Shown one piece after another: positions 2,523 to 21,835 of a stretch of DNA of 32,000 nucleotides. How positions within the stretch are numbered: the stretch's first letter is position 1; each line of letters starts with the position of its first letter. Source of the DNA: Candidatus Electrothrix sp. GW3-4 (GTDB lineage: Bacteria > Desulfobacterota > Desulfobulbia > Desulfobulbales > Desulfobulbaceae); assembly GCF_037902255.1 (NCBI RefSeq), contig NZ_CP147990.1, positions 1,470,001-1,502,000 of the forward strand, read 5' to 3'. Below the pieces are notes generated by a model. The model was not told where the DNA came from and did not search any database. It worked only from the letters and a program-made list of their open reading frames with translations. The position numbers and the translations under genes are program-made.

Positions 2523-2525
2523 TCT

Positions 2526-2715: not shown

Positions 2716-2743
2716 GTAGGGACACGGCATGCCGTGTCCCTAC
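2716..2743. repeat. 28-bp perfect palindrome (copy 2)
   Basis: Identical to 2448-2475. It ends 6 nt before the stop (2750-2752) of the convergent minus-strand caspase ORF. Confidence 0.9.
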
Positions 2744-2749
2744 GGCAGA

Positions 2750-4435
2750 TCACGGTAGAGCCACCACCGGAAAGTCGGGCACGTTCCTGGGGATGACCAC
2801 TGCCGGGGTCTGTTTGCTATTGGTCATGGTCTTGACCCGTTCAGCGATATAGAGCTTGATCTCGGAAACTTTAACAGCCCTGTCCTTTATATAATCCGCA
2901 TTGCCGCGCAACGCCTCAAGCAGGGCCAGGGTAAAGGCCCCGTGCCCCCATTCGGGCTTTTCCAGAGCCGTCTGCTGGCCTGTTGTGGCAGACAGCACGA
3001 TCACCCCATTCTCTGCCGCGCTCAGGTCGTTGATGATCCTGGTGATGTCCACCTTGTCGTTGCCGCGCCGCCCGGCGGCCCGCCCGGAATAGCAGGTATC
3101 AACAAAGAACAGGGCCTTGCCCTGGATACGGGATACCGTGCTGTTGATGGCATCGTAGGACACGCCGCTGCTCATGTACCGCCCCGGCTCAAAGTCCCTG
3201 GGCAGGAAGTAGTAATCCCCGCGCCGGTCCAGCTTACCGTGCCCGGCAAAGAAGACCATTGCCACGTCCTTGTTCGTGGTTTCCCGCTCGATCCAGTCCA
3301 GCCCGTCCAGGACAGCACTCCGGTCCGCCTGTTCATTGATCAGCACCTTCTCCTTTACCTCCCGGTAGAGCCTGTGCCTGCCCGGCCCGACATGCTTCCG
3401 CATCTCCTGAACAAAGTCCCGCGCATCAGCACCCGCATAGTTGAGATACTTTCTGTCCGTCCTCTTGCCTTGGTCATCCACCGCAAAGTTGATTGCTGGC
3501 GCGTCATAGGTGTCCACACCCACGGCCAGCACGTACAGTACCGGTTTAAAGGGATCTATGTTGCCTTGCCAGTGCAGATTAATGTCAGCAGGTGGCGACG
3601 TGTCACCCAGCGCATTCTCGGCCAGCAGGCTGAGGGTCATGTCCTTGGCAGGCAGGGTCACGTCCAGACTGCCTTCCCATTCCGTATCCCTGCGCCGCTC
3701 CACTGTGGCCCGCTGCCGATACCTTCCATCCACCTGAACCAGCAGGTGTGTGATGGGTGGGCCGTCCTGGGTGCGCACCCGGTAACGCAGGGTCAGGGTG
3801 GGACTGCTGAAGCTGCTCCCGTTTGCCGGAGCGAGCAGGTCAACAGCAGGGGGCAGGGACAGCACCACCGGGCCGGACCGCTTCCTTCCTGCCGCCGCAT
3901 CAGCACGGGCCACGGCCTTGTCTTGGTCCAGGGTCTCCAGCACCTTGGCGACCACGTCTGGGCGGTAAAAGCGTTCGCGGAACTGAGAAGCTGGGAAGAA
4001 GTCGGCCAGTCGGTCTTTGCCGTTGTTGACCTGCCAACCGATCAGGCTGTCCCCGCCAGGGCTGCTGTCGTACCAACCCTTCGGAGTCCAGGCCACCCAA
4101 TGCTCTGCCTCCTTGGTCTTCTGGTTGACAGAGACAAACAGGGCAAGCAGCGGCTCACCGTCGCTGAGGCGGTACCAGCGCACCGTGCCGTCTGCAAAGG
4201 CGGCCACTGCCAGCTTCCCATCCTTGCTGATATTCACGCCCCAGGCAGTGCCCGGCACCGGCTGCTGCCAGACTTCCCGGCCCTGGCGGTCAAAGTAGCG
4301 CAGCCTGTAGTCCGCACCCAGAAGGAAGTGCTGCTTGTCCGGGGCAATGGCCAAGCTGCGGGAACGTTCGTACTGTTCCAAGGCCAGCGGTTTGCCGTTG
4401 AGGGTGGGATTATATTCTGTTGATCCAGTCCGCAA
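2750..4435 (-). CDS. caspase-like peptidase C14 domain protein with N-terminal WD40 blades (C-terminal fragment of split gene)
   Basis: Catalytic His sits in VAMVFFAGHGKLD (codon 3239-3241). Catalytic Cys sits in ALFFVDTCYSGRAAG (codon 3092-3094). The N-terminal part has propeller-like strands (GKLAVAAFADGTVRWYRL). The track start is TTG 4435, directly after an in-frame TGA at 4439-4441. Confidence 0.85.
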   Translation of the reverse strand: MRTGSTEYNPTLNGKPLALEQYERSRSLAIAPDKQHFLLGADYRLRYFDRQGREVWQQPVPGTAWGVNISKDGKLAVAAFADGTVRWYRLSDGEPLLALFVSVNQKTKEAEHWVAWTPKGWYDSSPGGDSLIGWQVNNGKDRLADFFPASQFRERFYRPDVVAKVLETLDQDKAVARADAAAGRKRSGPVVLSLPPAVDLLAPANGSSFSSPTLTLRYRVRTQDGPPITHLLVQVDGRYRQRATVERRRDTEWEGSLDVTLPAKDMTLSLLAENALGDTSPPADINLHWQGNIDPFKPVLYVLAVGVDTYDAPAINFAVDDQGKRTDRKYLNYAGADARDFVQEMRKHVGPGRHRLYREVKEKVLINEQADRSAVLDGLDWIERETTNKDVAMVFFAGHGKLDRRGDYYFLPRDFEPGRYMSSGVSYDAINSTVSRIQGKALFFVDTCYSGRAAGRRGNDKVDITRIINDLSAAENGVIVLSATTGQQTALEKPEWGHGAFTLALLEALRGNADYIKDRAVKVSEIKLYIAERVKTMTNSKQTPAVVIPRNVPDFPVVALP

Positions 4436-4694
4436 CCTTCAGACCCTCCGCCGCAGTGATCGGGGCAGTCAGGCTGCCTTCACAGTGTCCCTTGCGGACC
4501 TGCCGCTGATGCAGGTCAAAGCAGACCGGTTCCTCACTGCCATAGTCCAGGCCGAAGGCGACCTGCCTGCCGTCCGCACTGACCTGGAAGCTGTCACCTC
4601 GCTTACCCCGCATATCCGGGAGCTTGGGCCGCAGATCAAAGAGCTTGCTGCCCTGCCTGTCGTAGCGGAGCAGGGCCGGATCAGCAGTGCCCAC
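4410..4694 (-). CDS. WD40-like blade segment (middle fragment of split gene)
   Basis: Contains FQVSADGRQVAFGLDYG and ALLRYDRQGSKLFDL, which are propeller-like. The track start is GTG 4694, but this frame is open upstream to a TAA at 4800-4802, overlapping the end of ORF 4709..5728. Confidence 0.5.
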   Translation of the reverse strand: MGTADPALLRYDRQGSKLFDLRPKLPDMRGKRGDSFQVSADGRQVAFGLDYGSEEPVCFDLHQRQVRKGHCEGSLTAPITAAEGLKVADWINRI

Positions 4695-4708
4695 CAGCAG
4701 GCTGCCGT

Positions 4709-5728
4709 TTAGCAGGGGGCGAAATCCATCACGGATGTATCTGCCGCCTGCCAGCTTATCCGCTGGCCTCGCCCCTTGTTCGCCCAGCGCAGGACAGGAT
4801 TATTGCCGCTGCCGTCATCATACAGTCCCCCGGCAAAGAGGAAGCTGCCGTCCGCAGACCAAGTGACAATGGAAATATTGCCGTTATCGATGCCCTCTGT
4901 GTCTACGGCATAGAGCTGAGTGAGCTGCCGGGCATCCAGCACCGAGACTGCGGTGCTATCCTGAAAGCCGACTGCTAATCGGTCACCTGCGGGATGAAAG
5001 GCGACCGCAAAGGGTTCCTTGCCGCCTTGGGTGGCTGCCTGCTGCTCCTTGCGAAAGGAGGCTGTGTTCATCCGACCCTCCACGCTATAGCGGCGGATCT
5101 GGCCGTCATCGCAGGTAGTAACCAGACTGCGGCTGTCCGGGCTGAAGGCGCAACCGTAGCTATCCTTGCCGTCGTAGTTGCGGTCGCTGAGTACCTGCCT
5201 GAAGCCCTGCTTCACAGCATAGACCCGCAGCCCCTTGCCACCTCCCAGCACCGCTGCCAGCCATTGCCCATCCCGGGACACGCAGAGATGGTTGATGACA
5301 TTGCCCAGCCCCTCAATGCGTTGGCGCATCTGGCCTGTGGCCCGGTCAAGAATGTAGATAGCTGTCGTGCTTCCGCCCCAGACATCCGTCCACCCGCCGG
5401 TTGCCAGCCACTCGCCTGCCGGGTCCATAGCCACAGCATTGAGCTTGCCTTCATTACCCGGCCCGCTGGGCAGGCGAAAGGTGCGGAGCAGGTTGGGCTT
5501 CTCGGTATCCCGGATATCCTTGCCAAGATCCCACAAGCGCAGGGTCTTGTCCTCCGAAGCTGTAGCGAGCCAACGACCTTGCGCATCCGTGGCAATCCGC
5601 CTGATCGTGGCAGTGTGGAAACCGGTTTCCAGGCGTAGCATGGGCGCAGTGGGTGGTTCAGCGGCTTGGGTTGTAGCGGCAAGCAGGATAAGGAGGACGA
5701 TGAGTAGGTTGAAGAGCAGGTGTTTCAT
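4709..5728 (-). CDS. secreted WD40 repeat protein (N-terminal fragment of split gene)
   Basis: Signal peptide MKHLLFNLLIVLLILLAATTQA/AEP. Repeated blades include ATASEDKTLRLWDL, LATGGWTD, VSRDGQWLAAV, FSPDSRSLVTTCDDGQIRRY and WSADGSFLFAGG. Confidence 0.8.
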   Translation of the reverse strand: MKHLLFNLLIVLLILLAATTQAAEPPTAPMLRLETGFHTATIRRIATDAQGRWLATASEDKTLRLWDLGKDIRDTEKPNLLRTFRLPSGPGNEGKLNAVAMDPAGEWLATGGWTDVWGGSTTAIYILDRATGQMRQRIEGLGNVINHLCVSRDGQWLAAVLGGGKGLRVYAVKQGFRQVLSDRNYDGKDSYGCAFSPDSRSLVTTCDDGQIRRYSVEGRMNTASFRKEQQAATQGGKEPFAVAFHPAGDRLAVGFQDSTAVSVLDARQLTQLYAVDTEGIDNGNISIVTWSADGSFLFAGGLYDDGSGNNPVLRWANKGRGQRISWQAADTSVMDFAPC

Positions 5729-5958
5729 GGTATGGGTCTCCGTTATGCGGAATAGGGAATGCAGCAGGATACCCGTAAGCTGGTGATGTTGTCAAGGAGT
5801 GCACAGGGTGTCAGCAAGAGGGGAAGGGCGTTCATGAGAGGTCCATGTTGTTCAATGCCCCCTCTGTTTCGCAGGGATATTCCCTTGGGGATCGTCATGC
5901 GTCACAGGGGGATTATCCTGCTCCCCTTGGGAAGAACGTTTTTGAGGAGGGGGAGGGT

Positions 5959-6045
5959 GATACAGGCCCCGGAAACAGCAGCGGCCCCGGCCAGGCTGGC
6001 TGCATGTTGCGAGGAGCTGGAGGTTATCCGGTAAAGAAAACCGAT
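5959..6045 (+). pseudogene. remnant of an ABC-F gene 3' end
   Basis: Nucleotide similarity to 1476-1566. By hand alignment I count 12 mismatches in the first 64 positions. It translates as IQAPETAAAPARLAACCEELEVIR, against IQAPETTADPARLTECCEELEIVQ in the intact gene. No ABC domains lie upstream of it. Confidence 0.6.
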
Positions 6046-6061
6046 AAATCGGGCCGCAAGG

Positions 6062-6090
6062 GTTGACAGCTATTCGGAAATACAATAAGA
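6062..6090 (+). promoter_or_regulatory. sigma70-type promoter candidate for the FKBP gene
   Basis: TTGACA at 6062-6067, a 17-nt spacer, then TAAGAT at 6085-6090. It lies about 90 nt upstream of ATG 6178. Confidence 0.4.
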
Positions 6091-6177
6091 TCAAGCGTAT
6101 CTTTTATGGAAAGGACTGCCTGTGCGGTCCTGATTATTATTCATTCCGTCAATCCTGGAAAAGGATAAGGAGCATGT

Positions 6178-6606
6178 ATGACTGCAGCAAAACAAGGAGA
6201 CAGCGTCAAGGTCCATTATACTGGCACCCTTGAGGATGGAACTCAATTTGATTCCTCTGTGGGGGTTGAACCGCTGGAGTTCACCTTGGGCAGCGGTCAG
6301 GTGATTGCCGGCTTTGATGAGGCAGTCACGGGGATGGAACCCGGTGAGAAGAAGAATGTAAGTATTCCTGCGGAGAAGGCCTACGGTCAGCGTAACGAGG
6401 AAATGGTGATCAGCGCCCCCCGTGATCAGGTACCTGCGGATATCACCCCGGAGATCGGTCAGCAGTTGCAGCTTGCCGGACCCAATAATCAGCCCATTGT
6501 GGTGAAGGTCACCGAGGTGACGGATGAACATATTCAGCTGGATGCCAATCCGCCCCTGGCAGGCAAGGATCTCACCTTTGAGCTGGAGCTGGTTGAGATC
6601 GCTTAA
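6178..6606 (+). CDS. FKBP-type peptidyl-prolyl cis-trans isomerase (SlyD/FkpB-like)
   Basis: VKVHYTGTLEDGTQFDSS and FTLGSGQVIAGFDEAVTGM are FKBP hallmarks. An insert-in-flap-like segment and a C-terminal LAGKDLTFELELVEI are present. RBS AAGGAG lies upstream. Confidence 0.9.
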   Translation: MTAAKQGDSVKVHYTGTLEDGTQFDSSVGVEPLEFTLGSGQVIAGFDEAVTGMEPGEKKNVSIPAEKAYGQRNEEMVISAPRDQVPADITPEIGQQLQLAGPNNQPIVVKVTEVTDEHIQLDANPPLAGKDLTFELELVEIA

Positions 6607-6769
6607 GCAGGTCTTCCAGTCCAGTTATGCAAGGGCGACGCTGTGATGGTGTCGCCCCTCTGTCCTCCCGCCTTTCCCTCTTTAAACGCCATCCTTTCTG
6701 CAAGGCTGCAAAATCAGACAAATGCCACTCAATAGGATGATTCCCTAATTGCGCTCTGTGTCGTTATCC

Positions 6770-7327
6770 TTACTGACACCGAATAACCTTGAAACTATCG
6801 CAGTGGTGATGGGCCGGATTACAGACAGCATTGTTGGCAAGAGTCATCGTGGAGACATTGACTCCGACATCTTGTACAAAACTCTGAGCATGACTGAATC
6901 CCTTGTGTTGGCAGAAGGCATCTGCCGCAGGTTTTCCGCATTCGTGTTCAAAGGATTTGCACCAGTCAAGGCGATAGCCTCGATATTCCGGCTTATGAAA
7001 GACGGCTAGTTTTTCTTTGCAGTTGATAAAGGTAAACGAGTCGCAGCGATGGTGTTGTGGATTACAGATGGCATGATCCTGAATGGTCATGGTTTCGACC
7101 TGCATATTGCTTTTCTTGGAGAAATCCAAGGCAGAGAGGTGACCCTGTTTTTTACAGAAGGCATCTGCCGCAGGCTTTCCACATTCATGTTCAAAGGACT
7201 TGCACCAATCAAGGCTATAACCCTGATATATGGGGTTCGGGTAGTTGGCAGCTGCACTCAGATGAGGAAAACAGGTAGAGAAAAAGAAAGCAATAGCCGT
7301 ACAGGTAAATCTGGTTTTCGTTTTCAT
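6770..7327 (-). CDS. secreted protein with two tandem 6-Cys domains, unknown function
   Basis: Signal peptide MKTKTRFTCTAIAFFFSTCFPHLSAA. Two units of about 80 aa each contain GY(S/R)LDWCKSFEHECGKPAADAFC...(A)(I/V)CNP.HH.CDSF..I.C. RBS GAGGAG is present. The duplication is also visible at DNA level (about 6900-6990 vs 7140-7230). Confidence 0.75.
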   Translation of the reverse strand: MKTKTRFTCTAIAFFFSTCFPHLSAAANYPNPIYQGYSLDWCKSFEHECGKPAADAFCKKQGHLSALDFSKKSNMQVETMTIQDHAICNPQHHRCDSFTFINCKEKLAVFHKPEYRGYRLDWCKSFEHECGKPAADAFCQHKGFSHAQSFVQDVGVNVSTMTLANNAVCNPAHHHCDSFKVIRCQ

Positions 7328-7607
7328 GAAGCTCCTCTTGCTGATAGATTGGAAGTGAATGTGGTGACTCTGAAGAACTCAGCCTGACTCCTTGAGTTGG
7401 GGCCAGATGAGATAACTCGCAACCTCACTGCTTCTCCACTATAATCTGCTGATTATCACCCTGCAATTGTTTTAAATGCCACTTCTTCCTTTTTTTAAGC
7501 GTTTAAGCGTCTAATGGCTGAGCATCAAGCTCGTTTCACCAGCTGCATGGGGGTGAGTAGGAGCAACGAAATCAAATGACGTGAGAAATGCCTTGTCCGC
7601 TTGCGTG

Positions 7608-8489
7608 TTACTCAAGCAACCCTTCCACCGCCTTATGCAATTCTTTTATTGCCAGGGAAGAGGGTGCATCAGGATACATGTTCACGGCCAGAGCACCGCG
7701 CGCCAGGGCTTGGGGCAGACGCGGATCATAGGGGATCTTGCCAAGCAGGGGAATATTGTTCTGGACAAGCCAGTCCTGAGTGATGCCTGCGGATTTTGGG
7801 TCCATATCGCTTCGGTTGAGCACGGCACCGGCAGGAATGCCGAACCCGCGCACTACCTCCGCAATCCTTTGCAGATCACTCAGGGCGGACGGGGTGGGTT
7901 CGCTGACCAAGATGGCGTAATCTGCGCCTTTGAGGGCCGCGATCACCGGGCAGCCGATGCCCGGAGGACCATCCGTGAGCAGCAGATCGCTGCCGTTCAA
8001 CGAGGCCTCTTGCCGAGCCTCCCGCTTGACAATATCCACCAGTCGCCCTGAGCTGGATTCGCCGATACCCAATTCCCCGGCAACCACTCGAACAGCCCCG
8101 GAGGTGACAAAGTTTATCTTGCCGTTTTCTACAGGGTGAATCGAAACAGCCTCTTCCGGGCAGACCAGCGCGCAAACGCCGCAGCCCTCACAGGAATAGC
8201 TGATAATAATCGGTTCGTTCTCGCCGATAATCGAGGAAAAGGCGCAGGCATCCACGCAGCGCATGCAGCGGCTGCACTTTTCATAATCAATGATCGCCTT
8301 GTCCGAAGCCGCGACCGCTCTGCTGCGGTCAAAGTTTGCCCCCAGGACGATATGAAGATTTGGTGCATCCACATCCGTGTCCGCCAAGGTGAGGCGTGTG
8401 CCCTTTTCAGTCAGCAGATGGGCCAGGGCCGCAGTCAGCGAGGATTTCCCCACCCCGCCTTTGCCGCTCAGAATAACGATTTCTTTCAT
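7608..8489 (-). CDS. MinD/ParA-type P-loop ATPase with inserted 2x[4Fe-4S] ferredoxin domain
   Basis: Deviant Walker [10 protein letters not shown]. Two Cys clusters: [11 protein letters not shown] and [12 protein letters not shown]. The stop/start overlaps the upstream paralog (8486-8489). Confidence 0.9.
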
Positions 8490-9448
8490 AACTGCTCCTG
8501 CCTTGCCTGTTTTTTCCAGTCCGGATAGGCTGCTGCAAGGCGGTCAGCCAAGCCCAGGAAGATCTTTGCCGTTGATGAGTTCGGAAAAAGATTGACCACT
8601 GGCCTTCCTTGCAGATAACCGGCCAGCAGATCCTTATTCTGTTTGATTTCCGCTGCAACAGGAGTGGAACCGGCCCGGCCTGTTTTCTCCGTCTTTGCTT
8701 TTTGACCGGGCAGATCCGAACGATTGATCACAACACTCGTCTGGACGGCAAACATATCCAGCAGAGAGAGGATCAGCTCAAGATCATGGGCCCCCAGCGG
8801 GGTCGGCTCTGTCACAGCCAGCACATGGTCAGCTCCTTTTAAGGCGCCGATCACATTACAATGGGTTCCCGGCGCAGTATCAACCAGGATGATATCAAAA
8901 AGGTCCGCATCGGCAAAGGCAGTCTTTCTGACCGCATTGACCAACAGGGCGCTTTCTGCCAAACCTGGTTGGAGAGCCCCGGTGTACAGGGTCAGGTTGC
9001 CCCGCTTGGTTGTGTAGAGGGTCCCCACAGAATGACTTCCCCGGCCAATTGCCTCTGCCGGACAGACCAGGTAACAGGCTTCGCAGCCATTGCATTCGCC
9101 CAGCAGGGTGATTGTCTTTGGTTGTGAGCGGAACAGACTGTTCATCTGACAGGCTTTGACGCATTTTTGGCAATCCGTGCATTTTTCCGGGTCGAAAACC
9201 GGCTGCATGATGGTAACAGGCTCCGGGTTTTCCAGTGGTATGCCGAGGAGGAGGCTGTCGTTGGGGGCGTCCACATCCGCGTCGATCAAGGCGACCTTCT
9301 TGCCTTGGGCGACAAAGGCGGCAGCCAGGTTCACCGCTATTGTTGATTTGCCCACCCCACCCTTGCCGCCAGTGACCCCGATAATCGGGGTCGTAAAGGT
9401 CGTGCTGTGGAAATGTTTGATGATTTCCGGGTGCAGTTTTTTGTTCAC
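8486..9448 (-). CDS. MinD/ParA-type P-loop ATPase with inserted ferredoxin domain (paralog)
   Basis: Walker [11 protein letters not shown]. Cys clusters [11 protein letters not shown] and [12 protein letters not shown]. It overlaps the upstream gene by 4 nt. Confidence 0.9.
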
Positions 9449-9978
9449 TGGCCCCTCCTGCGTCCCTGACCCTTTCCTGTTCCGTTACCGCAACCGCAGC
9501 CTCCTTTTCCCCGGCCCCGGCCCTGCCCTTGACCCTGGCCATACCCGCTGCCTTGGACTCGGACGGCACCAGGGCCTTGGCATTGAGCCGAGGAAGAATC
9601 CAGAGAAGGGGAGGACGGATCTGTTGCAGCCTGAGATTGGGGCTGGCCAGAATGACCATATTTTCCTGCCCGGAATTGTTTCAGGGCCTCGCCTACAGTC
9701 GAACTGTCCAATCCTTCGTACATCTCTATTCCCGAGGCCTCCAGTGCTGCTTTGGCCTTGGGGCCGAGCCTGCCTGTGAGCACCGCATTAACTCCGTGCT
9801 CGGTCATGGTCTGGGCTGCAGCAATACCTGCTCCTTGCGCGGCCTGGGCTGTGGTGTTTTCAATGCCTTGGGTCGCGCCTGATTCTGTATCGACCAGAAC
9901 AAACCAAGGGGCCCTGCCAAAGGCGGCATCGGTTGCTGCCTGGATATCATTTCCTGCTGCTGTAATACAGAGTTTCAT
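9445..9978 (-). CDS. dinitrogenase FeMo-cofactor-biosynthesis-like (NifX/NifB-C family) protein with Gly/Gln/Arg-rich tail
   Basis: [15 protein letters not shown]...[14 protein letters not shown] matches the NifX/NifB C-terminal fold family, which commonly precedes two MinD-ferredoxin genes. The last ~70 aa are low-complexity. Confidence 0.85.
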
Positions 9979-10364
9979 TTTGTTTCCTCCGTGACCTGTG
10001 GATTCTTTGGAGCAGGCTTTTTCCTGGCAAAAAAGACCTGCTTGTTGCTAACTCCCTATGCGTAATGTTATGCTTGTTTTGTGCATATACACAATATATG
10101 GATACGGAAATATTTTGTCAACAGTTAGTTAATGGTTTGGTGCTTTTTGTATAGCTGAGGGCTATATGACTTGCCACTTGAGGGGTATAGATATTGAGAA
10201 AAGGAAAACTGCTGAATGATTTGATGCGTGGGTAAGAATAAAAAGAGGCCTGGGGAGCAAGTCTGCTCTGTCTAATTTTCTTGACAATGTAGCTTGGTCA
10301 GGGTTCAGTTTTACTTTTTAGTGAAAGGAATAGTCAGTTTTTTTTGGGAAAGGAGAAGAGCTAT

Positions 10365-10718
10365 ATGGAACTGCCTTCAGAAGGGTATCTGCTGCGGATC
10401 ATTATCGGCGAAGCGGCTCGCCACGAAAATAAGCATCTTTACGAGTGGATTATTATCAAGGCCCGGGAACATGGGATTGCTGGAGCCACTGCTGTGCGGG
10501 GGATGATGGGGTATGGTGCTCACTCCAGGATTAGGACCAGCTCTATTCTCTGTCTGTCCGAAGACCTGCCCGTGGTGATAGAGCTCATTGATAGCCAGCA
10601 GAAGCTGGAGGAGTTTCTTGATGTGATTGATCCGGTTATTCCAGAAGGGGTGGTAACCATGGAACAAGTCCATGTCCGATTGTATCGGTATAGCAAAAAG
10701 AAGAATGATACAAAATAG
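10365..10718 (+). CDS. DUF190 (PII-like) domain protein
   Basis: LLRIIIGEAARHENKHLYEWIIIKAREHGIAGATAVRGMMGYGAHSRI...LSEDLPVVIELID is the typical DUF190 pattern. ATG 10365 follows GGAAAGGAGAAGAG; the track ORF starts at TTG 10344. Confidence 0.75.
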   Translation: MELPSEGYLLRIIIGEAARHENKHLYEWIIIKAREHGIAGATAVRGMMGYGAHSRIRTSSILCLSEDLPVVIELIDSQQKLEEFLDVIDPVIPEGVVTMEQVHVRLYRYSKKKNDTK

Positions 10719-11456
10719 CTCTGTGGGGTTGCAATGAGCTTGCAGTCCTGCACTGAGGATATTGTGTAAGACAAGCCCTCGGTCTGTTTGCGGGTAAAGC
10801 CCGCGTTAATTATTGAGCCGCTCAATATGGCAAAGCAGCAGGGCGTATCGCCTGCCTATCTCTCGATATTATCATTTTAGTTCCTGTCCAGCAAGAGAGC
10901 GTTGCTCTCTCCATCCCCTATTACCCTTTCGGTACCCATCTTTATCTTCCGCGACATTCCCTGTAGATAACACCCATCCCGCCCCCTGGGGCAGAACAGC
11001 AAAGCATGAAAGGTGATCGGACGTCCCCAGGGAATCGTCGGTACTTTCATATAAAGGTATCTGGCTGCGTACTACTACATTATCCATTTCGGGCCGGGGT
11101 TATGCTCCTGATGGCATTGGGGCAATAGTGTTTGTTTTGTGTTTTCGTGCATTGAAGTTAACAGCGTCGTGCCGCAAAAGATATTTGCCAGGATTGAGGT
11201 TGGTTCTGTCGGTTATAGTGAATCAAGTATTTTATATAGTGAAACAGGTAGATATGGGGTGTTCTGTTTGGGTAATAGAAGCAGTGCGACTCCATCTCTA
11301 TGGGGTTTACAAAACCTTTACAATTTAATTTGCGTTGGACAAACTTCCTTTACAAACTTTGGTTAAGATATACGTATAAACAGAGAGAAACATTCAATGA
11401 CGCACAGTCTTCACTGGCTATAGCAGCTCTATTTTGAGACTTTTTAATATTTTTGA

Positions 11457-11702
11457 GTGGTTATTGTGGGTATTTTAAAAAATAATTTTAGCAATTCAAA
11501 AGAAGATAAACGTCAATTAATAGAGATTATTTTGCTTGTATTAATAATATTAACTGTAATATTAACTTTGTATTCTTCTTTTGATCGGCATGCTGGTGGC
11601 ATACAGATAAAAGATCCAAAGCTTACAAAAGAAAAAATTTATAAACAAGGAGTTGGAAAGAGTACGGTAGCTCGTGAGGTCGTTGAGCTCGATGTTGAGT
11701 AA
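11457..11702 (+). CDS. hypothetical small single-TM protein
   Basis: Track ORF with a GTG start in a very AT-rich stretch. One hydrophobic helix (LIEIILLVLIILTVILTLY). No recognisable family and a weak start context. Confidence 0.3.
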   Translation: MVIVGILKNNFSNSKEDKRQLIEIILLVLIILTVILTLYSSFDRHAGGIQIKDPKLTKEKIYKQGVGKSTVAREVVELDVE

Positions 11703-11791
11703 CATATGAAGAAAAAACCTTTGCCGAACAAAAGCGATTCCCTTATGGCAATCATGGAGATTGTCCTAACTAATAAAGAGGATAGAGAGTT

Positions 11792-12265
11792 ATGTTGGTT
11801 AATAAAACATCATATTCTGAGCTTCTTGATCACCCTAAATGGCATAAGAAAAAATTAGATATTTTAGAAAAATCTGGCTTTAAATGCATTAGTTGTAGCT
11901 CCAATGAAAAGACACTTGATGTGTATCATTCCTATTATGTAAGCAATTTGAAACCATGGGAATATCCTAATAATAGTCTGTATTGCCTCTGTGGTGAATG
12001 TTATAATAAATCGCAATATATTATTACGTTAATTAAAAGACAGTTAAGGCATATTGAATTGGCCTATAATGAACGGCTTTTTGGCTATCTCTATGGATTA
12101 GAGACCTTAACGTACCCAATGGTGACTATTGGCGTTATGTCATATGAGGTCGCTCAAGGCATCGGAGACTGCTGGAAAATACCTCCTGAAGTAATCATTG
12201 AAAATCTTCGTGATGGTCATATTGATGGCTACACTTTGCGTAGTCTATCGAAAAACACAGAGTAA
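11792..12265 (+). CDS. HNH-like zinc-finger domain protein with Tyr in place of the expected His residues
   Basis: The N-terminus HPKWHKKKLDILEKSGFKCISC...LDVYHSYY...KPWEYPNNSLYCLCGECYNK follows the phage-type HNH layout I remember: W..KR..IL.RD...C..C...L.VHH.YY...PWEY...L..LC..CH...H. Several of the His positions are Tyr here. RBS AAAGAGGA is present. The C-terminal ~80 aa are unassigned. Confidence 0.6.
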   Translation: MLVNKTSYSELLDHPKWHKKKLDILEKSGFKCISCSSNEKTLDVYHSYYVSNLKPWEYPNNSLYCLCGECYNKSQYIITLIKRQLRHIELAYNERLFGYLYGLETLTYPMVTIGVMSYEVAQGIGDCWKIPPEVIIENLRDGHIDGYTLRSLSKNTE

Positions 12266-12759
12266 TGTGGTCGCTCAGGATTGATCCGGCCATCCCCCTT
12301 TTTTTAAAGCGGATCGTTTGCTTTTTCCCTGCCTCAAGCTCCTTTGCTAATACCTTCCGAATATCTTTTTTTCATCCGCTTATCCCCCATTTCGCTATTG
12401 CTATAAATAGCTGAATTTTAAATTTAAATTTTCAGCTCATTCTCTTGTGTAAAAAATAACAATACCGTAAAATCAATTATTTATTGTTAAGCATGGGGCA
12501 AAATAAGCGAATGGGGGGCTTATTATCGCAGATTGTACGATTATGCGTCGTTATACACTTTCCGGGGATAATATTGCCTGTAGTGCTGCTTACTCCTGAG
12601 AAATTCATGATTAATTCGTAATTTTTTTTCTGTGCTCCTCCCTGAGTTGCGGTTCTCTCTGTTTTGCACTAGGATAAGCACTTAGAATTTTTTCATGATA
12701 AAAGGAGGATTCTTCAGGGAGAAAGAGTCGGGCAGGGATTTTTTACAAGGAGGCTGAAT

Positions 12760-13128
12760 ATGGATATCATTACAGCGGCAATTGCCGGGGCATTGGCGAA
12801 TTTAGGAGCAGCGGCTGTCCAGAAAGGGTATGGAAAGCTGAAGGCGGTTATGCAGCGTAAGTTTGGGGCGGATAGCGACGTGGTGCAGGCCACAGAGAAG
12901 TTGGAGCAAAAGCCAGAGGCGCAGGGGCGGAAGTTGATGTTGCAGGAGGAATTGGTGGCTGCTGCTGCGGATAAGGATGCTGAACTGATAAAAGCGGCTG
13001 AGGAACTGCTGGCTGAGGTAAAGAAGCAGCCCGGAGGAGAAGCCTTTGTGCAACAGGTTGTTAACCAGCAGATAACCGGAGACGGTAATATCTTTTCCGG
13101 TACAGGTAATGTGACGGTTACGAAATAA
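12760..13128 (+). CDS. small helical protein with C-terminal NLR-matching motif (Bell/HeLo-like effector candidate)
   Basis: RBS AAGGAGG lies 7 nt upstream. The N-terminus has a Gly/Ala hydrophobic helix, MDIITAAIAGALANLGAAAV. The middle is charged and helical. The C-terminal QQITGDGNIFSGTGNVTVTK matches the N-terminus of the next gene. The stop overlaps the next ATG (TAATG at 13126-13130). Confidence 0.7.
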   Translation: MDIITAAIAGALANLGAAAVQKGYGKLKAVMQRKFGADSDVVQATEKLEQKPEAQGRKLMLQEELVAAAADKDAELIKAAEELLAEVKKQPGGEAFVQQVVNQQITGDGNIFSGTGNVTVTK

Positions 13129-15062
13129 TGGCTGCTGAAAATCGCCAGGACGTTGACGGCAGCGATAATATATTTTCCGGCAGCGGGCCGGTGACCGTCA
13201 ATAAGGTCACCAAGAATTATTACTCCTCTGAGGAGCCTTCCTCAACAACGAATGCTCCTTCCGAATTAGCCACCCTCTTCGGCGTTCCTAACCTCCCGCC
13301 GCGCTATCTGGAGCGGAATGACTACCTTGATCCCTTCCGCGAGGCCCTGCTTTGCGGGAAAACGCAGGCGGTCGGGATAACCGGCAGGCCGCAGTATGTA
13401 GGTATGCAGGGTATGGGCGGACTGGGCAAGTCGGTGTTGGCAGCGGCCTTGGCTTGGGATGAAGAAGTACGCCGTGCCTTTCCAGACGGCATCTTCTGGT
13501 TGCGTTTTGGGCAGGAGGTGGATGAGGCCGGGGTGCAGGAGCTGCAAAAGGAAATCTTACTGGTTCTGGCCCCGGACAGCAAGCCGGAGTCTCCGGCTCA
13601 GGGGCGGAACCTCCTCAGCCTTGCCCTTCAGGGAAAACGCTGTCTGCTCATAGCCGACGACCTCTGGGACAGCAGATACATCAACCATTTTGACCTTACC
13701 GACTCCGGTTCTCGTTTTCTCCTCACTACCCGCAATAACGAGGTCATCCAGGAAACAGGTGCCCACCGCTGCGAGCTGGAACTGCTCTCGAACGGGCAGG
13801 CACGGGAGCTGCTGGCGAAATGCTCCGGCTTTGCTGAGGAGGATCTGCCTGAAGAGGCGGAAGCCATCCTGCGGGAATGCGGTCGTCTCCCCTTGGCTGT
13901 GGCAGCCATCGGCAGTATGGTCAATGGCAAGGGGCGTAGTCGCTGGCAGTTGGCCCTGGAGAAACTGCAAAATGCCCGGCTTGATAAAATCCCGGCCAGG
14001 TTTGATCGCTACAGCGGCTATGAAAATCTGTTCAAGGTCTTTCAGGTCAGTGTGGAGGACCTGCCGTCCGAGGTACAGGCCTATTTCAAGACGTTGATTG
14101 TCTTTTCTGAAGATGCGGAAATCCCTGAATCCGTGCTTCAGCTCTACTGGGAGCATATTGGTCAGGGGGAGTATGAGCCGCTGGAGGCGGTTGACCTGCT
14201 GGTGCAGCGGTCATTGCTTACTCCTGGAGCCAATCATAACGCGTTTGTCCTTCATGATTTGCTTCGGGATTACCTTGTTATTGAGGCTGACGGTGAGGTT
14301 GCCGAGTTGCACAGGCAGCTGCTTATGGCCTATAAAGCTGTTTATCCAGACGGGTGGCATACGATCCCTTATGCGACACCTTATTATTTCTATAGATACT
14401 GGTCAAATCATGTAGAAGCAGCTGGTGAGAGGGCTTTAGCTTCGAGTATTGCAGATGCGCTGATTCAGCATCAGCCTCTTCTCAATCTAGATAGTGTGCT
14501 GGAGGCTTTAATTTTTGTTAATTATGAATTTGAGGACATTGCTCACTCTCTCTTGAAAAGAAATCAGAATTCAAGGGTCCTCTATAGAAGTCTGCAAATT
14601 CTCGGGTCCAAAGCTAAGGAGGATGCAAGGCGACTCTTAAAGGAGAATTCCGACTCGTCTGTGATCAGTGAATGTCTCAGAATCCTTGATGGTGAAGCAA
14701 AGAAAAATGCTCGACAACTGTTGAAAGAAAGTTCTAATCCAGAAATTATTGATGAATGTTTCAAGATTCTTGGAGATGAGGCTAAAGAGGATGCAAAACG
14801 ATTATTGAAGGAGAGTTCTGATTCCTGGATGATCCTTATCTGTTTAGGCCTTCTTAAGGATGAGGCAACTGAGGAAGCCCGGCAGTTACTCAAATCAAGC
14901 GAAGATGAATATATTGTTGTTGCTTGTATTGAAACACTCGGCAAAGAAGCAAAAGCTGAGGCCAATCGGTTGATTAAAATTAGCAAAAGTAAATTTATCC
15001 AAGGATGCTGTCGGAAATTAATTTCTTCCTGGAATGATCTACCAAAGAGTAATACTTTATAG
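13128..15062 (+). CDS. NB-ARC-type STAND NTPase (bacterial NLR-like) with C-terminal 28-aa helical repeats
   Basis: P-loop GMQGMGGLGKS (13410-13433). Walker B CLLIADDLWD. FLLTTRN resembles RNBS-B and CGRLPLAV resembles the GLPL motif. A helical/winged-helix region follows. Then come five to six 84-bp-phased repeats starting at 14577, 14661, 14745, 14829, 14913 and 14997. Confidence 0.9.
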   Translation: MAAENRQDVDGSDNIFSGSGPVTVNKVTKNYYSSEEPSSTTNAPSELATLFGVPNLPPRYLERNDYLDPFREALLCGKTQAVGITGRPQYVGMQGMGGLGKSVLAAALAWDEEVRRAFPDGIFWLRFGQEVDEAGVQELQKEILLVLAPDSKPESPAQGRNLLSLALQGKRCLLIADDLWDSRYINHFDLTDSGSRFLLTTRNNEVIQETGAHRCELELLSNGQARELLAKCSGFAEEDLPEEAEAILRECGRLPLAVAAIGSMVNGKGRSRWQLALEKLQNARLDKIPARFDRYSGYENLFKVFQVSVEDLPSEVQAYFKTLIVFSEDAEIPESVLQLYWEHIGQGEYEPLEAVDLLVQRSLLTPGANHNAFVLHDLLRDYLVIEADGEVAELHRQLLMAYKAVYPDGWHTIPYATPYYFYRYWSNHVEAAGERALASSIADALIQHQPLLNLDSVLEALIFVNYEFEDIAHSLLKRNQNSRVLYRSLQILGSKAKEDARRLLKENSDSSVISECLRILDGEAKKNARQLLKESSNPEIIDECFKILGDEAKEDAKRLLKESSDSWMILICLGLLKDEATEEARQLLKSSEDEYIVVACIETLGKEAKAEANRLIKISKSKFIQGCCRKLISSWNDLPKSNTL

Positions 15063-15336
15063 ATTTTAATAAACAGGTGGGATGATAGTTTCCTACTACG
15101 GCACCACAAAAAAATATTTCTTCTGACTCGAAATAGACTTCTTCCATTTTTACCCCAGCACACCCTGGAAAACCCCAGAAACCGCCTGGCTTCAACCCAG
15201 AAGAATTGAGGAAAAAGCCAGAACAACTCTAGCTCAACCCAGGCCTTTGCTGCTTTAAAATACAAAAAATCTATACCCAACGATCATAATCTCATCAAGA
15301 ATCTCAAAAGAGTTCGAGAAAAATAAGGAGATACCC

Positions 15337-15936
15337 ATGCCATTGCCTCAGCACGAACCGCAACAGCAGATCAGCGAGCAGGAATACCTGGACGGTGAAC
15401 TCCTCAGTGAGGTGAAGCACGAATTCATTGATGGATCTGTCTACGCAATGGCAGGGGCCAGTGCTGATCATGGCAGAATAGCAGGCAATCTTTTTGCTGC
15501 CTTCCTCCGCCATCTTCAGGAGCGGAAGTCACCATGTGAGCCTTTCCAGGCTGATATGAAGGTGAAAACCGGGAAGAAGTTTTTTTATCCTGATGTACTT
15601 ATCTCCTGTGAGCAGGAAGAAAATGAGTATTACCGCAATGCCCCTTTGCTTATTATCGAGGTGGTCTCGCAGTCAACCCGGAAAAAAGACAACACCATAA
15701 AACGACAGTCCTACCAGGCTCTTCCCAGCCTGGAAGAATTCGTTTTGATTGAGCAGGATTTTGTCGATATTGAGGTCTGTCGGAGGAGCAAGCACTGGTG
15801 GCCTGAGCATTATTATCTCGGCGATGCAGTGCATTTTGCCTCAATTGATCTGACCCTGCCAGTGGAGGATATCTACGCCCGAGTCATGAATGATGATATG
15901 CAGGCGCACAGGAAAAACACAGCAAATTATGAGTAA
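15337..15936 (+). CDS. Uma2 family (DUF820) restriction-endonuclease-fold protein
   Basis: EYLDGE...VKHEFIDGSVYAMAGASADHGRIAGNL...PDVLISC...PLLIIEVVSQSTRKKDNTIKRQSY is the typical Uma2 pattern, with the PD-(D/E)xK-like D...EVxS core. RBS AAGGAG is present. Confidence 0.85.
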   Translation: MPLPQHEPQQQISEQEYLDGELLSEVKHEFIDGSVYAMAGASADHGRIAGNLFAAFLRHLQERKSPCEPFQADMKVKTGKKFFYPDVLISCEQEENEYYRNAPLLIIEVVSQSTRKKDNTIKRQSYQALPSLEEFVLIEQDFVDIEVCRRSKHWWPEHYYLGDAVHFASIDLTLPVEDIYARVMNDDMQAHRKNTANYE

Positions 15937-15955
15937 GAACCCAAAAGGAGGTACA

Positions 15956-17377
15956 ATGCATTATGCCCGGATAATCCTCACCCTAACCCTTGCCTTCCTT
16001 GCCCTGGCAGGCCCTTGGCCCGCAGCAGCCGAGGAAGAATTTGTCACCGCCCTGACCGGCAAGTTTCCCCCCTTCAGTTATTACGACAACCAAGGGAACC
16101 TTGCCGGTTTTGACGTGGACGTCAGCCGGGAAATCGCCCTGCGCATCAACCGTGAATCCCGGATCATCGCCACGGAATGGGACGGCATCCTGGCAGGTCT
16201 GCTGGCAGAGAAATACGACGCCATTATCGGCTCAATGGCCATCACCCCGGCCCGGCAGGAAAGCGTGGATTTTTCCGCGCCCTATTACCATTCAGGTGCC
16301 CAGCTCTTTGTCCACCGCGACAACCCGGACAAGGTCTACTCCATTGAGGAGTGCAAGGGATTAGCCGTTGCCGTGGTCCTGGGTGAGACCTACCAGCATT
16401 ATCTCGAAGAAAGGTTCCCGGATATTGAGGTGGTCACCCTCAAGTCAGCAGCCGAGATCTTTGCCATGCTGGAGCAGAAGCGGATCACTGGCTTTGTCAC
16501 GGATCGGCTGGTCGGGGCCTGGCAGACCAAGGAGGCGGGCCGTCCCTTTGTGCCGGTGGGCGAGATGCTCTATAAGGAGCGCATCGGCATCCCGGTGCGT
16601 AAGGACAGCCCGGAGCTGCTCAGCCAGATCAACACGGCCCTGGCCGAAATGGAGGATGACGGCACCATGCAGCGCATCCACCAGCGTTATTTCGGTCTGG
16701 GCAAGACCTCCTCTTCCACGCTCGGCACCATGGAACCCACGGTGATTGCGACCAAGCTGCTCAAGGGCTTTGCTGTCAGTCTCGGCATCGCCCTTGCTGC
16801 GCTCCTGCTCGGCTTTGCCTTGGCCATTCCCAGCGGCCTGCTGCTGACCTTTCAGCGGGGCAACCTCAAGCCGCTCCATTTTTTGGTGCGGGGCTTTGTT
16901 GATTTTATCCGGGGCACGCCTGTGCTGATCCAGCTCCTCTTTGTCTGGCTGGGTCTGGGCTTGTCGCCTTTTCCGGCCGCCATTCTGACCCTGGGCATCT
17001 GCGCAATGGCTTATATGGCCGAGGTTATCCGGGCAGGCCTGATGAGTGTTGATCCAGGCCAGGATTTAGGCGCACGGGCCTTGGGACTTTCTCCCCTGGA
17101 TCGGTTTCGCTTTGTGGTCTGGCCTCAGGCCTTCCGCATTGCCATCCCGCCCTTGATGAACTGCGTAGTGGCCCTGCTGAAAGACACGGCCCTGGTCTCT
17201 ATTATTTCCATCCCGGAGCTGATTCGCGAGGCCCAGTCCATAATCAGTGTCACCTTTGAACCGGGTCTCTACTACCTGATCGCTGGACTCATGTTCTTTG
17301 CTGTGACCTTCCCGCTGATGAAGCTCTCTGATCGCGTTGAACGCTCCATCAAAGCCAAAGGATTTGCCCATGATTGA
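15956..17377 (+). CDS. amino-acid ABC transporter, fused periplasmic binding protein and permease
   Basis: ATG 15956 follows AAAAGGAGG. Signal peptide MHYARIILTLTLAFLALAGPWPAAA. A type-3 SBP domain (GFDVDV...WDGILAGL..KYDAIIGSMAITPARQE) precedes a His/Glu/Gln/Arg-type permease with EAA-like loop AYMAEVIRAGLMSVDPGQDLGARALG. Confidence 0.9.
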   Translation: MHYARIILTLTLAFLALAGPWPAAAEEEFVTALTGKFPPFSYYDNQGNLAGFDVDVSREIALRINRESRIIATEWDGILAGLLAEKYDAIIGSMAITPARQESVDFSAPYYHSGAQLFVHRDNPDKVYSIEECKGLAVAVVLGETYQHYLEERFPDIEVVTLKSAAEIFAMLEQKRITGFVTDRLVGAWQTKEAGRPFVPVGEMLYKERIGIPVRKDSPELLSQINTALAEMEDDGTMQRIHQRYFGLGKTSSSTLGTMEPTVIATKLLKGFAVSLGIALAALLLGFALAIPSGLLLTFQRGNLKPLHFLVRGFVDFIRGTPVLIQLLFVWLGLGLSPFPAAILTLGICAMAYMAEVIRAGLMSVDPGQDLGARALGLSPLDRFRFVVWPQAFRIAIPPLMNCVVALLKDTALVSIISIPELIREAQSIISVTFEPGLYYLIAGLMFFAVTFPLMKLSDRVERSIKAKGFAHD

Positions 17378-18056: not shown

Positions 18057-18167
18057 GTAAAAATAAAACGAGAACAGGTTGACAGGGGGGAGTTCCTGAA
18101 ATATTCTGCTTCCCATCTCATGAGAATTATACACCTTTAAAAAAATAATATATAGACGGAGAATATT

Positions 18168-19898: not shown

Positions 19899-19905
19899 TA
19901 TACAT

Positions 19906-19933
19906 GCAGGGCCACAGCGTGCCGTGCCCCTGC
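19906..19933. repeat. imperfect member of the 28-bp palindrome family
   Basis: GCAGGGCCACAGCGTGCCGTGCCCCTGC. The arms GCAGGGCCACAGC and GCAGGGGCACGGC (reverse complement) differ at 2 positions. They are related to GTAGGGACACGGC at 2448 and 2716. It sits between the stop at 19896-19898 and ATG 19949. Confidence 0.5.
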
Positions 19934-19948
19934 AACTCTTTCTCAATC

Positions 19949-20806: not shown

Positions 20807-20840
20807 AGAAAGAGGGGGTAACCTGTCTGATAAATAAAAA

Positions 20841-20866
20841 TGCCCGCTCCAGATAAGGAGCGGGCA
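20841..20866. terminator. bidirectional rho-independent terminator candidate
   Basis: Perfect 10-bp stem TGCCCGCTCC/GGAGCGGGCA with a 6-nt loop. On the minus strand it is followed by TTTTTATTTA (reverse complement of 20831-20840). On the plus strand a TTTT run lies 8 nt downstream. It sits between convergent genes ending at 20806 and 20924. Confidence 0.55.
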
Positions 20867-20923
20867 GCCTGTGGTTTTATGAGCTTGTTGTACTAAAAAA
20901 AATAATGAGTAATGAGCGCCTTC

Positions 20924-21820: not shown

Positions 21821-21835
21821 ATTTTAGTTTGTTAC

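What the first reader, a model, noticed from the sequence alone, without database searches (positions are those of the whole stretch)
2750..5728. Periplasm-targeted WD40/caspase fusion gene split by two opposite-sign single-nucleotide frameshifts
**The three ORFs.** Three consecutive minus-strand ORFs read as one ~990-aa protein.
- 4709..5728: signal peptide (MKHLLFNLLIVLLILLAATTQA/AEP) plus WD40 blades.
- 4410..4694: more blade sequence (FQVSADGRQVAFGLDYG).
- 2750..4435: final blades, a beta-rich linker module and a caspase/C14 domain with an intact His (FFAGHG, 3239-3241) and Cys (DTCYSG, 3092-3094).

**Frames.** ORF1 and ORF3 are in the same frame. ORF2 is offset by one nt.

**Junction 1**
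- The ORF2 frame is open upstream to a TAA at 4800-4802.
- Adding one C to the C5 run (G5 on the + strand, 4715-4719) joins ...TSVMDFAP to LLNGSLLVGTADPALLRYD seamlessly.

**Junction 2**
- It must lie within 4413-4438, between the TGA at 4439-4441 in the ORF3 frame and the TAA at 4410-4412 in the ORF2 frame.
- Repair needs the loss of one nt.

**Possible explanations.** The disruption is one deletion and one insertion about 280 nt apart, with net length unchanged.
- A recently inactivated gene.
- Two assembly errors.
- Less likely, regulated frameshifting or phase variation at the homopolymer.

**Why it matters.** A secreted or periplasmic caspase with a propeller sensor is an unusual topology. 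Such peptidases are generally discussed as cytoplasmic death or defence effectors.
Basis: partly seen in the sequence, partly recalled or inferred. Interest (0 to 1): 0.7.

Follow-up and report, generated by a model that had tools for sequence, protein, structure and literature searches.

The report
Assembly errors split an intact caspase gene
The two frameshifts that cut this cable-bacterium WD40-caspase gene into three pieces are almost certainly leftover errors in a nanopore-based genome assembly, because an independent accurate assembly of the same strain carries one intact 992-residue gene of a common, already described bacterial family.

Summary
Three minus-strand ORFs (5728..4709, 4694..4410, 4435..2750) sit in frames 1/2/1 and together encode a signal-peptide, WD40 and Peptidase_C14 protein.

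The split is very probably not biological. The window comes from the closed genome of Ca. Electrothrix antwerpensis GW3-4. That genome was a Flye assembly of R9.4.1 nanopore reads, polished only by two Pilon rounds with MDA-amplified Illumina reads, and its authors report gene fragmentation.

A Logan assembly of run SRR28154588 from the same strain matches the window over about 22.3 kb, with no mismatches and only two indels. It has C6 where the window has C5 (4715-4719), and it lacks the extra base at 4418.

Contigs from a second, noisy run (SRR28154590) under-call homopolymers and misread TCG as CTG at other sites. The window's junction 2 is a hybrid of the accurate and the noisy versions.

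Orthologs in Electrothrix and Electronema (69-77% identity, syntenic in E. gigas) are uninterrupted.

The real gene is an ordinary member of a large family of mostly signal-peptide-bearing proteins: tandem beta-propeller, Ig-like module and caspase domain, with a conserved His/Cys dyad. Interest is low.

The parts
2750..5728 (-). One gene for a 992-aa exported tandem-propeller / Ig-like / caspase protein. In the deposited sequence two 1-nt errors break it into three ORFs (PGAP: WGN25_06740, WGN25_06735 and a 'caspase family protein', WP_339137822.1).
   Evidence: ORFs. Intact allele P0123 on Logan contig SRR28154588_13380 is identical to the repaired translation. Orthologs at 69-77% identity are uninterrupted.
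4715..4719 (-). Junction 1: G5 on the + strand (C5 on the coding strand) where the accurate assembly has six. This is a homopolymer under-call that removes 1 nt and ends ORF1 at the TAA at 4709-4711.
   Evidence: L001/L003 have C6. The noisy-run contigs under-call C6 as C5 at 27562 and 29218 as well.
4418..4418 (-). Junction 2: one surplus base (T on the + strand, A on the coding strand, CAAC[A]GAATAT). + strand versions: accurate run ATTCGTTG, noisy run ATCTGTTG, window ATTCTGTTG, which is a hybrid of the two.
   Evidence: The same TCG to CTG misread occurs in the noisy run at 25965 and 26554. The 94-aa and 561-aa products exist only in the deposited genome.
4419..4714 (-). 296-nt stretch that is out of frame in the deposit (residues about 338-437 of the true protein). 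It encodes the first blades of the second propeller.
   Evidence: frames. (gap-free alignment to orthologs). (pLDDT 85-96 over residues 331-440 in the model of the intact protein).
5663..5728 (-). Codons for the N-terminal signal-peptide-like segment MKHLLFNLLIVLLILLAATTQA, followed by the conserved AEPPTAPMLRLETGFHTA.
   Evidence: Hydropathy scan of 110 full-length homologs: 88 have a hydrophobic 10-mer (Kyte-Doolittle 2.0 or more) starting within the first 25 residues. Helix 2-22 in the model. No signal-peptide predictor was available.
3989..5641 (-). Tandem WD40-type beta-propellers (residues about 30-580).
   Evidence: Pfam WD40 88.5 bits. Model pLDDT 91. Foldseek best hits are double seven-bladed propellers: 2ymu (E 5.7e-28), 1nr0, 4ci8.
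3569..3988 (-). Helical linker (residues about 580-613) and an Ig/Fn3-like beta-sandwich (residues about 628-720).
   Evidence: Secondary structure of the models. Fn3-like matches 3pdd and 3pe9.
2753..3541 (-). Caspase-type (Peptidase C14) domain, residues about 730-992. His830 is at 3239-3241 and Cys879 at 3092-3094.
   Evidence: PF00656 51-53 bits against a cut-off of 21.4. His in 111/111 and Cys in 110/111 aligned proteins. Foldseek: MALT1 caspase domain 3v4o (E 1.5e-11, TM 0.72), Geobacter GSU0716 3bij, Yca1 4f6o.
5766..5795 (-). Promoter-like TTGACA-18 nt-TATCCT, about 40 nt upstream of the ATG. This is a consensus match only.
2716..2743 (-). 28-nt perfect palindrome 7 nt after the stop codon. 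It looks like a terminator and is one of two identical copies (the other is at 2448-2475).

Best explanation
The gene is intact in the organism. The two opposite-sign frameshifts are residual consensus errors in the deposited GW3-4 genome.

- Junction 1 is an uncorrected nanopore homopolymer under-call (C6 read as C5).
- Junction 2 is a nanopore 2-base misread (TCG read as CTG on the + strand) that short-read polishing only half repaired, which left one surplus base.

The true product is a 992-aa protein with these parts:
- an N-terminal Sec-type signal peptide;
- two WD40-type beta-propellers;
- a short helical linker;
- an Ig/Fn3-like sandwich;
- a C-terminal caspase-type cysteine protease domain with an intact His830/Cys879 dyad.

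Inferred, not shown: the protein is exported to the periplasm. There the propellers act as a binding platform for a ligand or substrate, and they position or control the protease domain.
For: 1. Provenance. ORF3 is 100% identical to the 'caspase family protein' of Ca. Electrothrix sp. GW3-4 on a 4,642,691-bp contig. The genome paper (PMC11247825) describes Flye on R9.4.1/Guppy 2.2.3 reads and only two Pilon rounds with MDA-amplified Illumina reads. The authors state that gene fragmentation was only reduced: mean protein length rose from 238 to 316 aa.

2. Independent assembly. The Logan contig SRR28154588_13380 (43,968 bp) matches the window from 2718 to 25062 with 0 mismatches and exactly 2 indels, which are the two junctions. 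It encodes a 992-aa protein (P0123) identical to the in-silico repair.

3. Error signature. Contigs from SRR28154590 match the same strain but carry many homopolymer under-calls: C6 to C5 at 27562 and 29218, C7 to C5 at 29570, T8 to T7, A7 to A6. They also carry TCG to CTG swaps at 25965 and 26554. They show C5 at junction 1 and the TCG to CTG swap at junction 2.

4. Hybrid state. The window's junction 2 is a hybrid of the two read-set versions. Its 94-aa and 561-aa products occur only in the deposited record, not in either read-derived assembly.

5. No decay. There is no substitution anywhere in the gene. The out-of-frame 296 nt still encode sequence that aligns without gaps to orthologs and folds at pLDDT 85-96.

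6. Orthologs. Nine full-length orthologs at 69-77% identity are uninterrupted. The E. gigas ortholog is syntenic, with FKBP upstream and a 217-aa gene plus ABC-F downstream.

7. Protein. Pfam, the conserved dyad and the fold matches support the protein description.
Against: - Raw reads could not be mapped, so allele frequencies in either run are unknown.
- The sequencing platforms of SRR28154588 and SRR28154590 are inferred from their error profiles and from the paper's description, not read from metadata.
- It is unexplained why Pilon left just these two errors, 296 nt apart, when the other ~22 kb compared are clean. Possible reasons are a local trough in MDA coverage or an incomplete edit, but both are guesses.
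- Export, signal-peptide cleavage and protease activity are inferred from sequence only.
Confidence: 0.93

Rival explanations
1. The gene is a genuine, very recent pseudogene: the strain carries two real indels that inactivate it.
For: The deposited, polished, closed genome shows both indels, and PGAP called three CDSs. The noisy-run contig also has C5 at junction 1.
Against: - An accurate assembly from the same strain has the intact gene, with no other difference over about 22.3 kb.
- C5 in the noisy run is uninformative, because that run under-calls C6 as C5 elsewhere.
- The junction-2 state differs among all three assemblies, and the window's version is a hybrid found in no read-derived assembly.
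- A second indel gives no selective benefit, because a TAA follows the first one after two codons.
- There is no secondary decay in the gene.
Confidence: 0.04
2. The gene is under phase variation or population heterogeneity: slippage at the C-run switches an exported caspase ON and OFF within the filament population, so both alleles are real.
For: Junction 1 lies in a homopolymer. The two data sets disagree on its length.
Against: - The tract is only 6 nt, which from general knowledge of contingency loci is short for slippage.
- It is absent from the E. gigas ortholog, whose codons there are AAG TCC CTG CCG.
- Junction 2 is not in a repeat, yet it would have to switch together with junction 1.
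- The culture was started from a single filament (PMC11247825).
- The length disagreement matches the noisy run's general under-calling.
Confidence: 0.02
3. Translation is recoded: ribosomes make the full-length protein from the frameshifted mRNA by shifting at both junctions.
For: The net length change is zero, and the middle segment keeps its coding sense in the shifted frame.
Against: - It would need two shifts of opposite sign.
- None of the uninterrupted orthologs examined, nor the same strain's other assembly, has the shifts.
- Artefactual indels explain the preserved coding sense trivially.
Confidence: 0.005

Closest known systems
Gene-fragmenting indel errors in nanopore-based, short-read-polished assemblies
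   Same: One junction is a 1-nt deletion in a homopolymer, and the other is a surplus base at a site the noisy run systematically misreads. One gene is split into adjacent same-strand ORFs that annotation calls as separate CDSs. The genome's authors report fragmentation (PMC11247825). The phenomenon is described in general in PMC12007338.
   Different: Nothing essential differs. The only peculiarity is that the two residual errors are close together and of opposite sign, so total gene length is unchanged.
Prokaryotic caspase homologs (orthocaspases / bacterial metacaspases, MEROPS C14) with WD40 repeats
   Same: The protein has a C14 domain with a His/Cys dyad fused to WD40 repeats. WD40 is the most frequent partner domain, found in 10.9% of 671 prokaryotic sequences. 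N-terminal helices that are 'likely signal peptides' and extracellular or cell-wall-binding partner domains have been reported (PMC3501461; PMC5756287).
   Different: Here the propellers are N-terminal, tandem, and separated from the protease by an Ig-like module. The best-known WD40 architectures are caspase-NACHT-WD40 or have C-terminal WD40 repeats and are cytoplasmic. No member of this particular subfamily has been studied experimentally, as far as the searched literature shows.
MALT1 paracaspase, Geobacter GSU0716 (PDB 3bij) and yeast metacaspase Yca1
   Same: These are the closest solved folds to the protease domain: 3v4o (E 1.5e-11, TM 0.72 on the target), 3bij (E 9e-11) and 4f6o (E 2.5e-7).
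   Different: Sequence identity is only 12-17%. Sequence search finds no solved relative. The domain context differs.
Periplasmic beta-propeller proteins (TolB, BamB)
   Same: They combine a signal peptide with a propeller that acts as a binding platform in the cell envelope. There are weak PQQ_2/BamB and PD40 profile hits in this protein and its family. Some relatives carry PG_binding_1 or PDZ domains.
   Different: There is no protease domain in TolB or BamB. The resemblance is architectural only.

Membership tests
Peptidase C14 (caspase / metacaspase / orthocaspase) | Profile match above the curated threshold | tested here: met
   PF00656 scores 52.9 bits (ORF3) and 51.4 bits (intact protein) against a cut-off of 21.4.
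Peptidase C14 (caspase / metacaspase / orthocaspase) | Catalytic His-Cys dyad in the conserved motifs | tested here: met
   FFAGHG has His830 and DTCYSG has Cys879. His is present in 111/111 and Cys in 110/111 aligned proteins.
Peptidase C14 (caspase / metacaspase / orthocaspase) | Caspase-type alpha/beta fold | tested here: met
   The domain model has pLDDT 88.6. Foldseek hits are MALT1 3v4o (E 1.5e-11), GSU0716 3bij and Yca1 4f6o.
Peptidase C14 (caspase / metacaspase / orthocaspase) | Proteolytic activity and P1 specificity | not testable with these tools
   This needs enzyme assays.
WD40 beta-propeller | WD40 repeat profile above threshold and a propeller fold | tested here: met
   PF00400 scores 87-88 bits against a cut-off of 27. 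Tandem-propeller fold matches are 2ymu, 1nr0 and 4ci8.
Sec-exported (periplasmic) protein | N-terminal signal peptide: basic n-region, hydrophobic core, small residues at -3 and -1 | tested here: inconclusive
   By inspection, MKH / LLFNLLIVLLILLAA / TTQA then AEP; orthologs have ALA then GEPP. 88 of 110 homologs have an N-terminal hydrophobic segment. No SignalP was available, and export was not shown.
True pseudogene | The disrupting mutations are present in the organism's DNA in independent data | tested here: not met
   The independent assembly of SRR28154588 has neither indel. The junction-2 state is unique to the deposited record.
True pseudogene | Secondary decay (substitutions, further stops) | tested here: not met
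   There are no mismatches in the gene against the intact allele. The middle segment aligns to orthologs without gaps.
Phase-variable contingency locus | A long, conserved simple-sequence tract at the switch site | tested here: not met
   The tract is C6 only and is absent from the E. gigas ortholog. The second site is not repetitive.
Programmed ribosomal frameshifting | The frameshift is conserved in orthologous genes | tested here: not met
   All 9 close full-length orthologs and the same strain's other assembly are in one frame.
Known anti-phage defence systems with caspase-like effectors | Match to defence-system models, or to NCBIfam caspase_w_EACC1, above threshold | tested here: not met
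   The PADLOC 'caspase' model scores only 23 bits. NF047832 scores 80.8 bits against a cut-off of 140. The gene is monocistronic, lying between FKBP and a palindrome.

The most novel reading that the evidence does not exclude
The intact protein may be a truly exported, active caspase-type protease. Its tandem propeller would sense an envelope or periplasmic ligand, and the protein would take part in controlled cell death or filament fragmentation ('ghost cells') in cable bacteria and other filamentous sulfur bacteria. The authors of PMC12163305 leave a role for caspase-domain genes in cable bacteria open. A still less likely variant is that the C-run really varies in length within the population.
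Probability: 0.08. Interest if true: 0.6.

Novelty: not a real feature. Interest (0 to 1): 0.1.

Why it matters
The main value is as a curation note. Three CDSs in the public GW3-4 record (WGN25_06740, WGN25_06735 and the 561-aa 'caspase family protein') should be a single 992-aa gene. The case also shows that this closed genome still holds unpolished nanopore indels that can pass for pseudogenes or recoding sites. Comparative genomics of cable bacteria that counts gene presence, pseudogenes or domain architectures would be misled by such splits. The underlying exported tandem-propeller caspase family is widespread and uncharacterised. It may deserve study for its own sake, but this locus adds nothing unusual to it.

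Tried and rejected
- Phase variation was rejected. The tract is short (C6), it is absent from the E. gigas ortholog, and the second site is not a repeat.
- Programmed frameshifting was rejected, because orthologs and the same strain's other assembly are in one frame.
- Three independent genes were rejected. Orthologs are single 961-1032-aa proteins, and the ORF2 segment is an integral, confidently modelled part of the second propeller.
- A defence-system affiliation was rejected. PADLOC and NCBIfam give only sub-threshold hits.
- Sequence search of the PDB with the protease domain found nothing, so a domain model and a fold search were used instead.
- Three look-ups of other window proteins, meant to extend the comparison with the accurate contig to the window ends, found no exact product. 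As a result, window 1-2717 and 25063-32000 were not checked against the accurate run.
Full report
**1. Observation**

The three minus-strand ORFs are at the stated coordinates: 4709..5728 (339 aa), 4410..4694 (94 aa) and 2750..4435 (561 aa). Their frames, taken as end coordinate mod 3, are 1, 2 and 1. So are the G5 run at 4715-4719 and the His (3239-3241) and Cys (3092-3094) codons. Pfam supports WD40 in ORF1 (87.3 bits, cut-off 27) and Peptidase_C14 in ORF3 (52.9 bits, cut-off 21.4). I repaired the sequence by adding one C to the C-run and removing one A from CAAC[A]GAATAT. This gives a 992-aa protein that matches hundreds of full-length proteins of 940-1030 aa at E = 0 to 1e-226 with 97-100% coverage.

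**2. Source of the window**

ORF3 is 100% identical to the 'caspase family protein' of Candidatus Electrothrix sp. GW3-4, on a contig of 4,642,691 bp. PGAP annotated the three ORFs as separate CDSs: WGN25_06740, WGN25_06735 and WP_339137822.1. The genome paper is PMC11247825. It reports MinION R9.4.1 reads basecalled with Guppy 2.2.3 and assembled with Flye. The usual polishing failed, so the authors ran only two rounds of Pilon with Illumina reads from MDA-amplified filaments. They state that polishing reduced gene fragmentation, with mean protein length rising from 238 to 316 aa. Residual indels are therefore expected in this assembly. Gene-fragmenting indels are a recognised problem of long-read assemblies (PMC12007338).

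**3. The decisive comparison**

The 90%-identity cluster that holds the three window ORFs also holds a 992-aa protein, P0123, from a Logan assembly of run SRR28154588. Its contig is 43,968 bp long and has the same gene order as the window.

Base by base, this contig matches window 2718..25062, about 22.3 kb, with 0 mismatches and exactly 2 indels:
- it has six C where the window has five (4715-4719);
- it lacks the base at window 4418.

These are the two junctions. The contig ends at window 2718, inside a 28-nt palindrome that occurs twice in the window. That is what a short-read assembly does at a dispersed repeat.

**4. The second run shows where the errors come from**

Contigs from SRR28154590 (L002, L004, L006) belong to the same strain, at 99.8-99.97% identity. 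They differ from the window almost only by homopolymer under-calls:
- A7 to A6 at 7490;
- T8 to T7 at 12622 and 27438;
- C6 to C5 at 27562 and 29218;
- C7 to C6 at 29170;
- C7 to C5 at 29570.

They also swap TCG for CTG at 25965 and 26554. This is the error pattern of R9.4.1 nanopore data. That attribution rests on general knowledge, because the platform was not read from metadata.

At junction 1 these contigs have C5, the same as the window. At junction 2, on the + strand:
- the accurate contig has ATTCGTTG;
- the noisy contig has ATCTGTTG, the same TCG to CTG swap;
- the window has ATTCTGTTG.

The window therefore carries the T of the accurate version as well as the CT of the noisy one. This is what a half-completed correction of a 2-base swap would leave behind. 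In line with this, the 94-aa and 561-aa products that this state creates are found only in the deposited record (NCBI/UniRef) and in no read-derived assembly. The noisy contig encodes different fragments: a 556-aa product reading ...WINRYNP... with a further frameshift after DTCYSGR, and a 100-aa product.

**5. Other evidence against a real disruption**

- The gene differs from the intact allele at no other position.
- The 296 nt between the junctions still encode sequence that aligns to orthologs without a gap.
- In the AlphaFold model of the intact protein, this segment is part of the second propeller at pLDDT 85-96.
- Nine full-length orthologs from the Electrothrix/Electronema group, including Ca. 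Electrothrix gigas and Ca. Electronema, are uninterrupted at 69-77% identity.
- The E. gigas ortholog is syntenic. It has a divergent FKBP gene upstream and a 217-aa gene plus an ABC-F gene downstream.
- Its codons at junction 1 are AAG TCC CTG CCG, so the C-run is not conserved.
- In the window, a TAA follows junction 1 after two codons. A second, 'compensating' indel could therefore bring no benefit.

What remains unexplained is why Pilon missed just these two sites. A local trough in MDA coverage or an incomplete edit are only guesses.

**6. What the gene really is**

The intact protein models with high confidence: mean pLDDT 91 and pTM 0.89, from an 80-sequence alignment. Its parts are:
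- an N-terminal helix, residues 2-22 (MKHLLFNLLIVLLILLAATTQA);
- beta structure from residue 30 to 580;
- helices at 580-613;
- a beta-sandwich at 628-720;
- an alpha/beta domain at 730-992.

Foldseek matches the N-terminal 550 residues to double seven-bladed propellers: 2ymu (E 5.7e-28), Aip1 1nr0 and EML1 4ci8. A separate model of the C-terminal 377 residues has pLDDT 88.6. It matches the MALT1 paracaspase domain (3v4o, E 1.5e-11, TM 0.72), the Geobacter caspase-like protein GSU0716 (3bij) and the yeast metacaspase Yca1 (4f6o). Its sandwich matches Fn3-like modules. Sequence search of the PDB finds nothing for this domain. The catalytic His is invariant (111/111) and the Cys nearly so (110/111).

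**7. Topology**

Of 110 full-length homologs, 88 have a strongly hydrophobic 10-mer starting within the first 25 residues. Several more have one after a longer N-terminal extension. In each case the conserved EPPxxPxLRIETGxHTA follows. The closest orthologs end the segment with a canonical ALA then GEPP. Some relatives also carry PG_binding_1 (PF01471), PDZ or PD40 domains, which are typical of envelope proteins.

Export to the periplasm is thus a reasonable inference for most of the family. It was not tested with a dedicated predictor or by experiment. It is also not new as a concept. Asplund-Samuelsson et al. 2012 found WD40 to be the most common partner domain of prokaryotic caspase homologs (10.9%). 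They also reported N-terminal helices 'likely to be signal peptides', along with extracellular and cell-wall-binding classes (PMC3501461). Cable-bacterium authors note that caspase-domain genes are present but of unknown function (PMC12163305). The protein is not part of a recognised defence system. PADLOC gives only a 23-bit 'caspase' hit, and NCBIfam caspase_w_EACC1 scores 80.8 bits against a cut-off of 140.

**8. Likely mechanism**

Shown here:
- a single open gene in the strain;
- a conserved catalytic dyad;
- propeller and caspase folds.

Inferred:
- Sec export, with cleavage after TQA;
- the tandem propeller serving as a binding platform for a periplasmic or envelope ligand or substrate;
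- the Ig-like module acting as a spacer;
- the C14 domain cleaving bound targets.

Any link to cell death or filament fragmentation is speculation.

**9. Verdict**

The sequence feature is confirmed, but it is an assembly and polishing artefact (confidence about 0.93). The gene beneath it is an ordinary, intact member of a large known family. Interest is low. The useful outcomes are a correction to the public annotation and a warning that this genome still contains such errors.

Noticed in passing
window 2448-2475 and 2716-2743: A 28-nt perfect palindrome, GTAGGGACACGGCATGCCGTGTCCCTAC, occurs twice exactly (0 expected by chance). One copy sits 7 nt after the caspase gene's stop codon and scores as terminator-like. 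The short-read contig ends inside it, which suggests a dispersed REP-like element.
   Followed up: partly
window 12760-13128 and 13128-15062 (+): A HetE-N domain ORF (122 aa, 24.6 bits, just under the cut-off of 25) overlaps by 1 nt an NB-ARC / APAF-1-like WHD / HEAT ORF (644 aa). This is an NLR-like STAND pair split into two ORFs. Both read-set assemblies show the same split, so unlike the caspase gene this split looks real. There is no PADLOC hit.
   Followed up: partly
window 4416-4418, 25965-25966, 26554-26555 (+ strand): Contigs from SRR28154590 read TCG as CTG at three sites, in the contexts TTCGT, CTCGC and TTCGT. This is a systematic miscall that might reflect a DNA modification motif in this organism.
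   Followed up: no
window 7608-9978 (-): A cluster of two MinD/ParA-type P-loop ATPases with 4Fe-4S ferredoxin inserts, followed by a Nitro_FeMo-Co (NifX/NifB-like) protein.
   Followed up: no
window 22673-26455 (-): A 1260-aa hydantoinase A / hydantoinase B fusion, which is oxoprolinase-like. The Pfam families come from the Logan contig's gene table. The exact product was not found on record.
   Followed up: no
window 15337-15936 (+): A Uma2-family putative restriction endonuclease lies directly downstream of the NB-ARC gene.
   Followed up: no
window 2750-5728 compared with the whole window: The gene has 61.3% G+C against 52.8% for the window. This was not pursued. It may reflect amino-acid composition or a foreign origin.
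   Followed up: no
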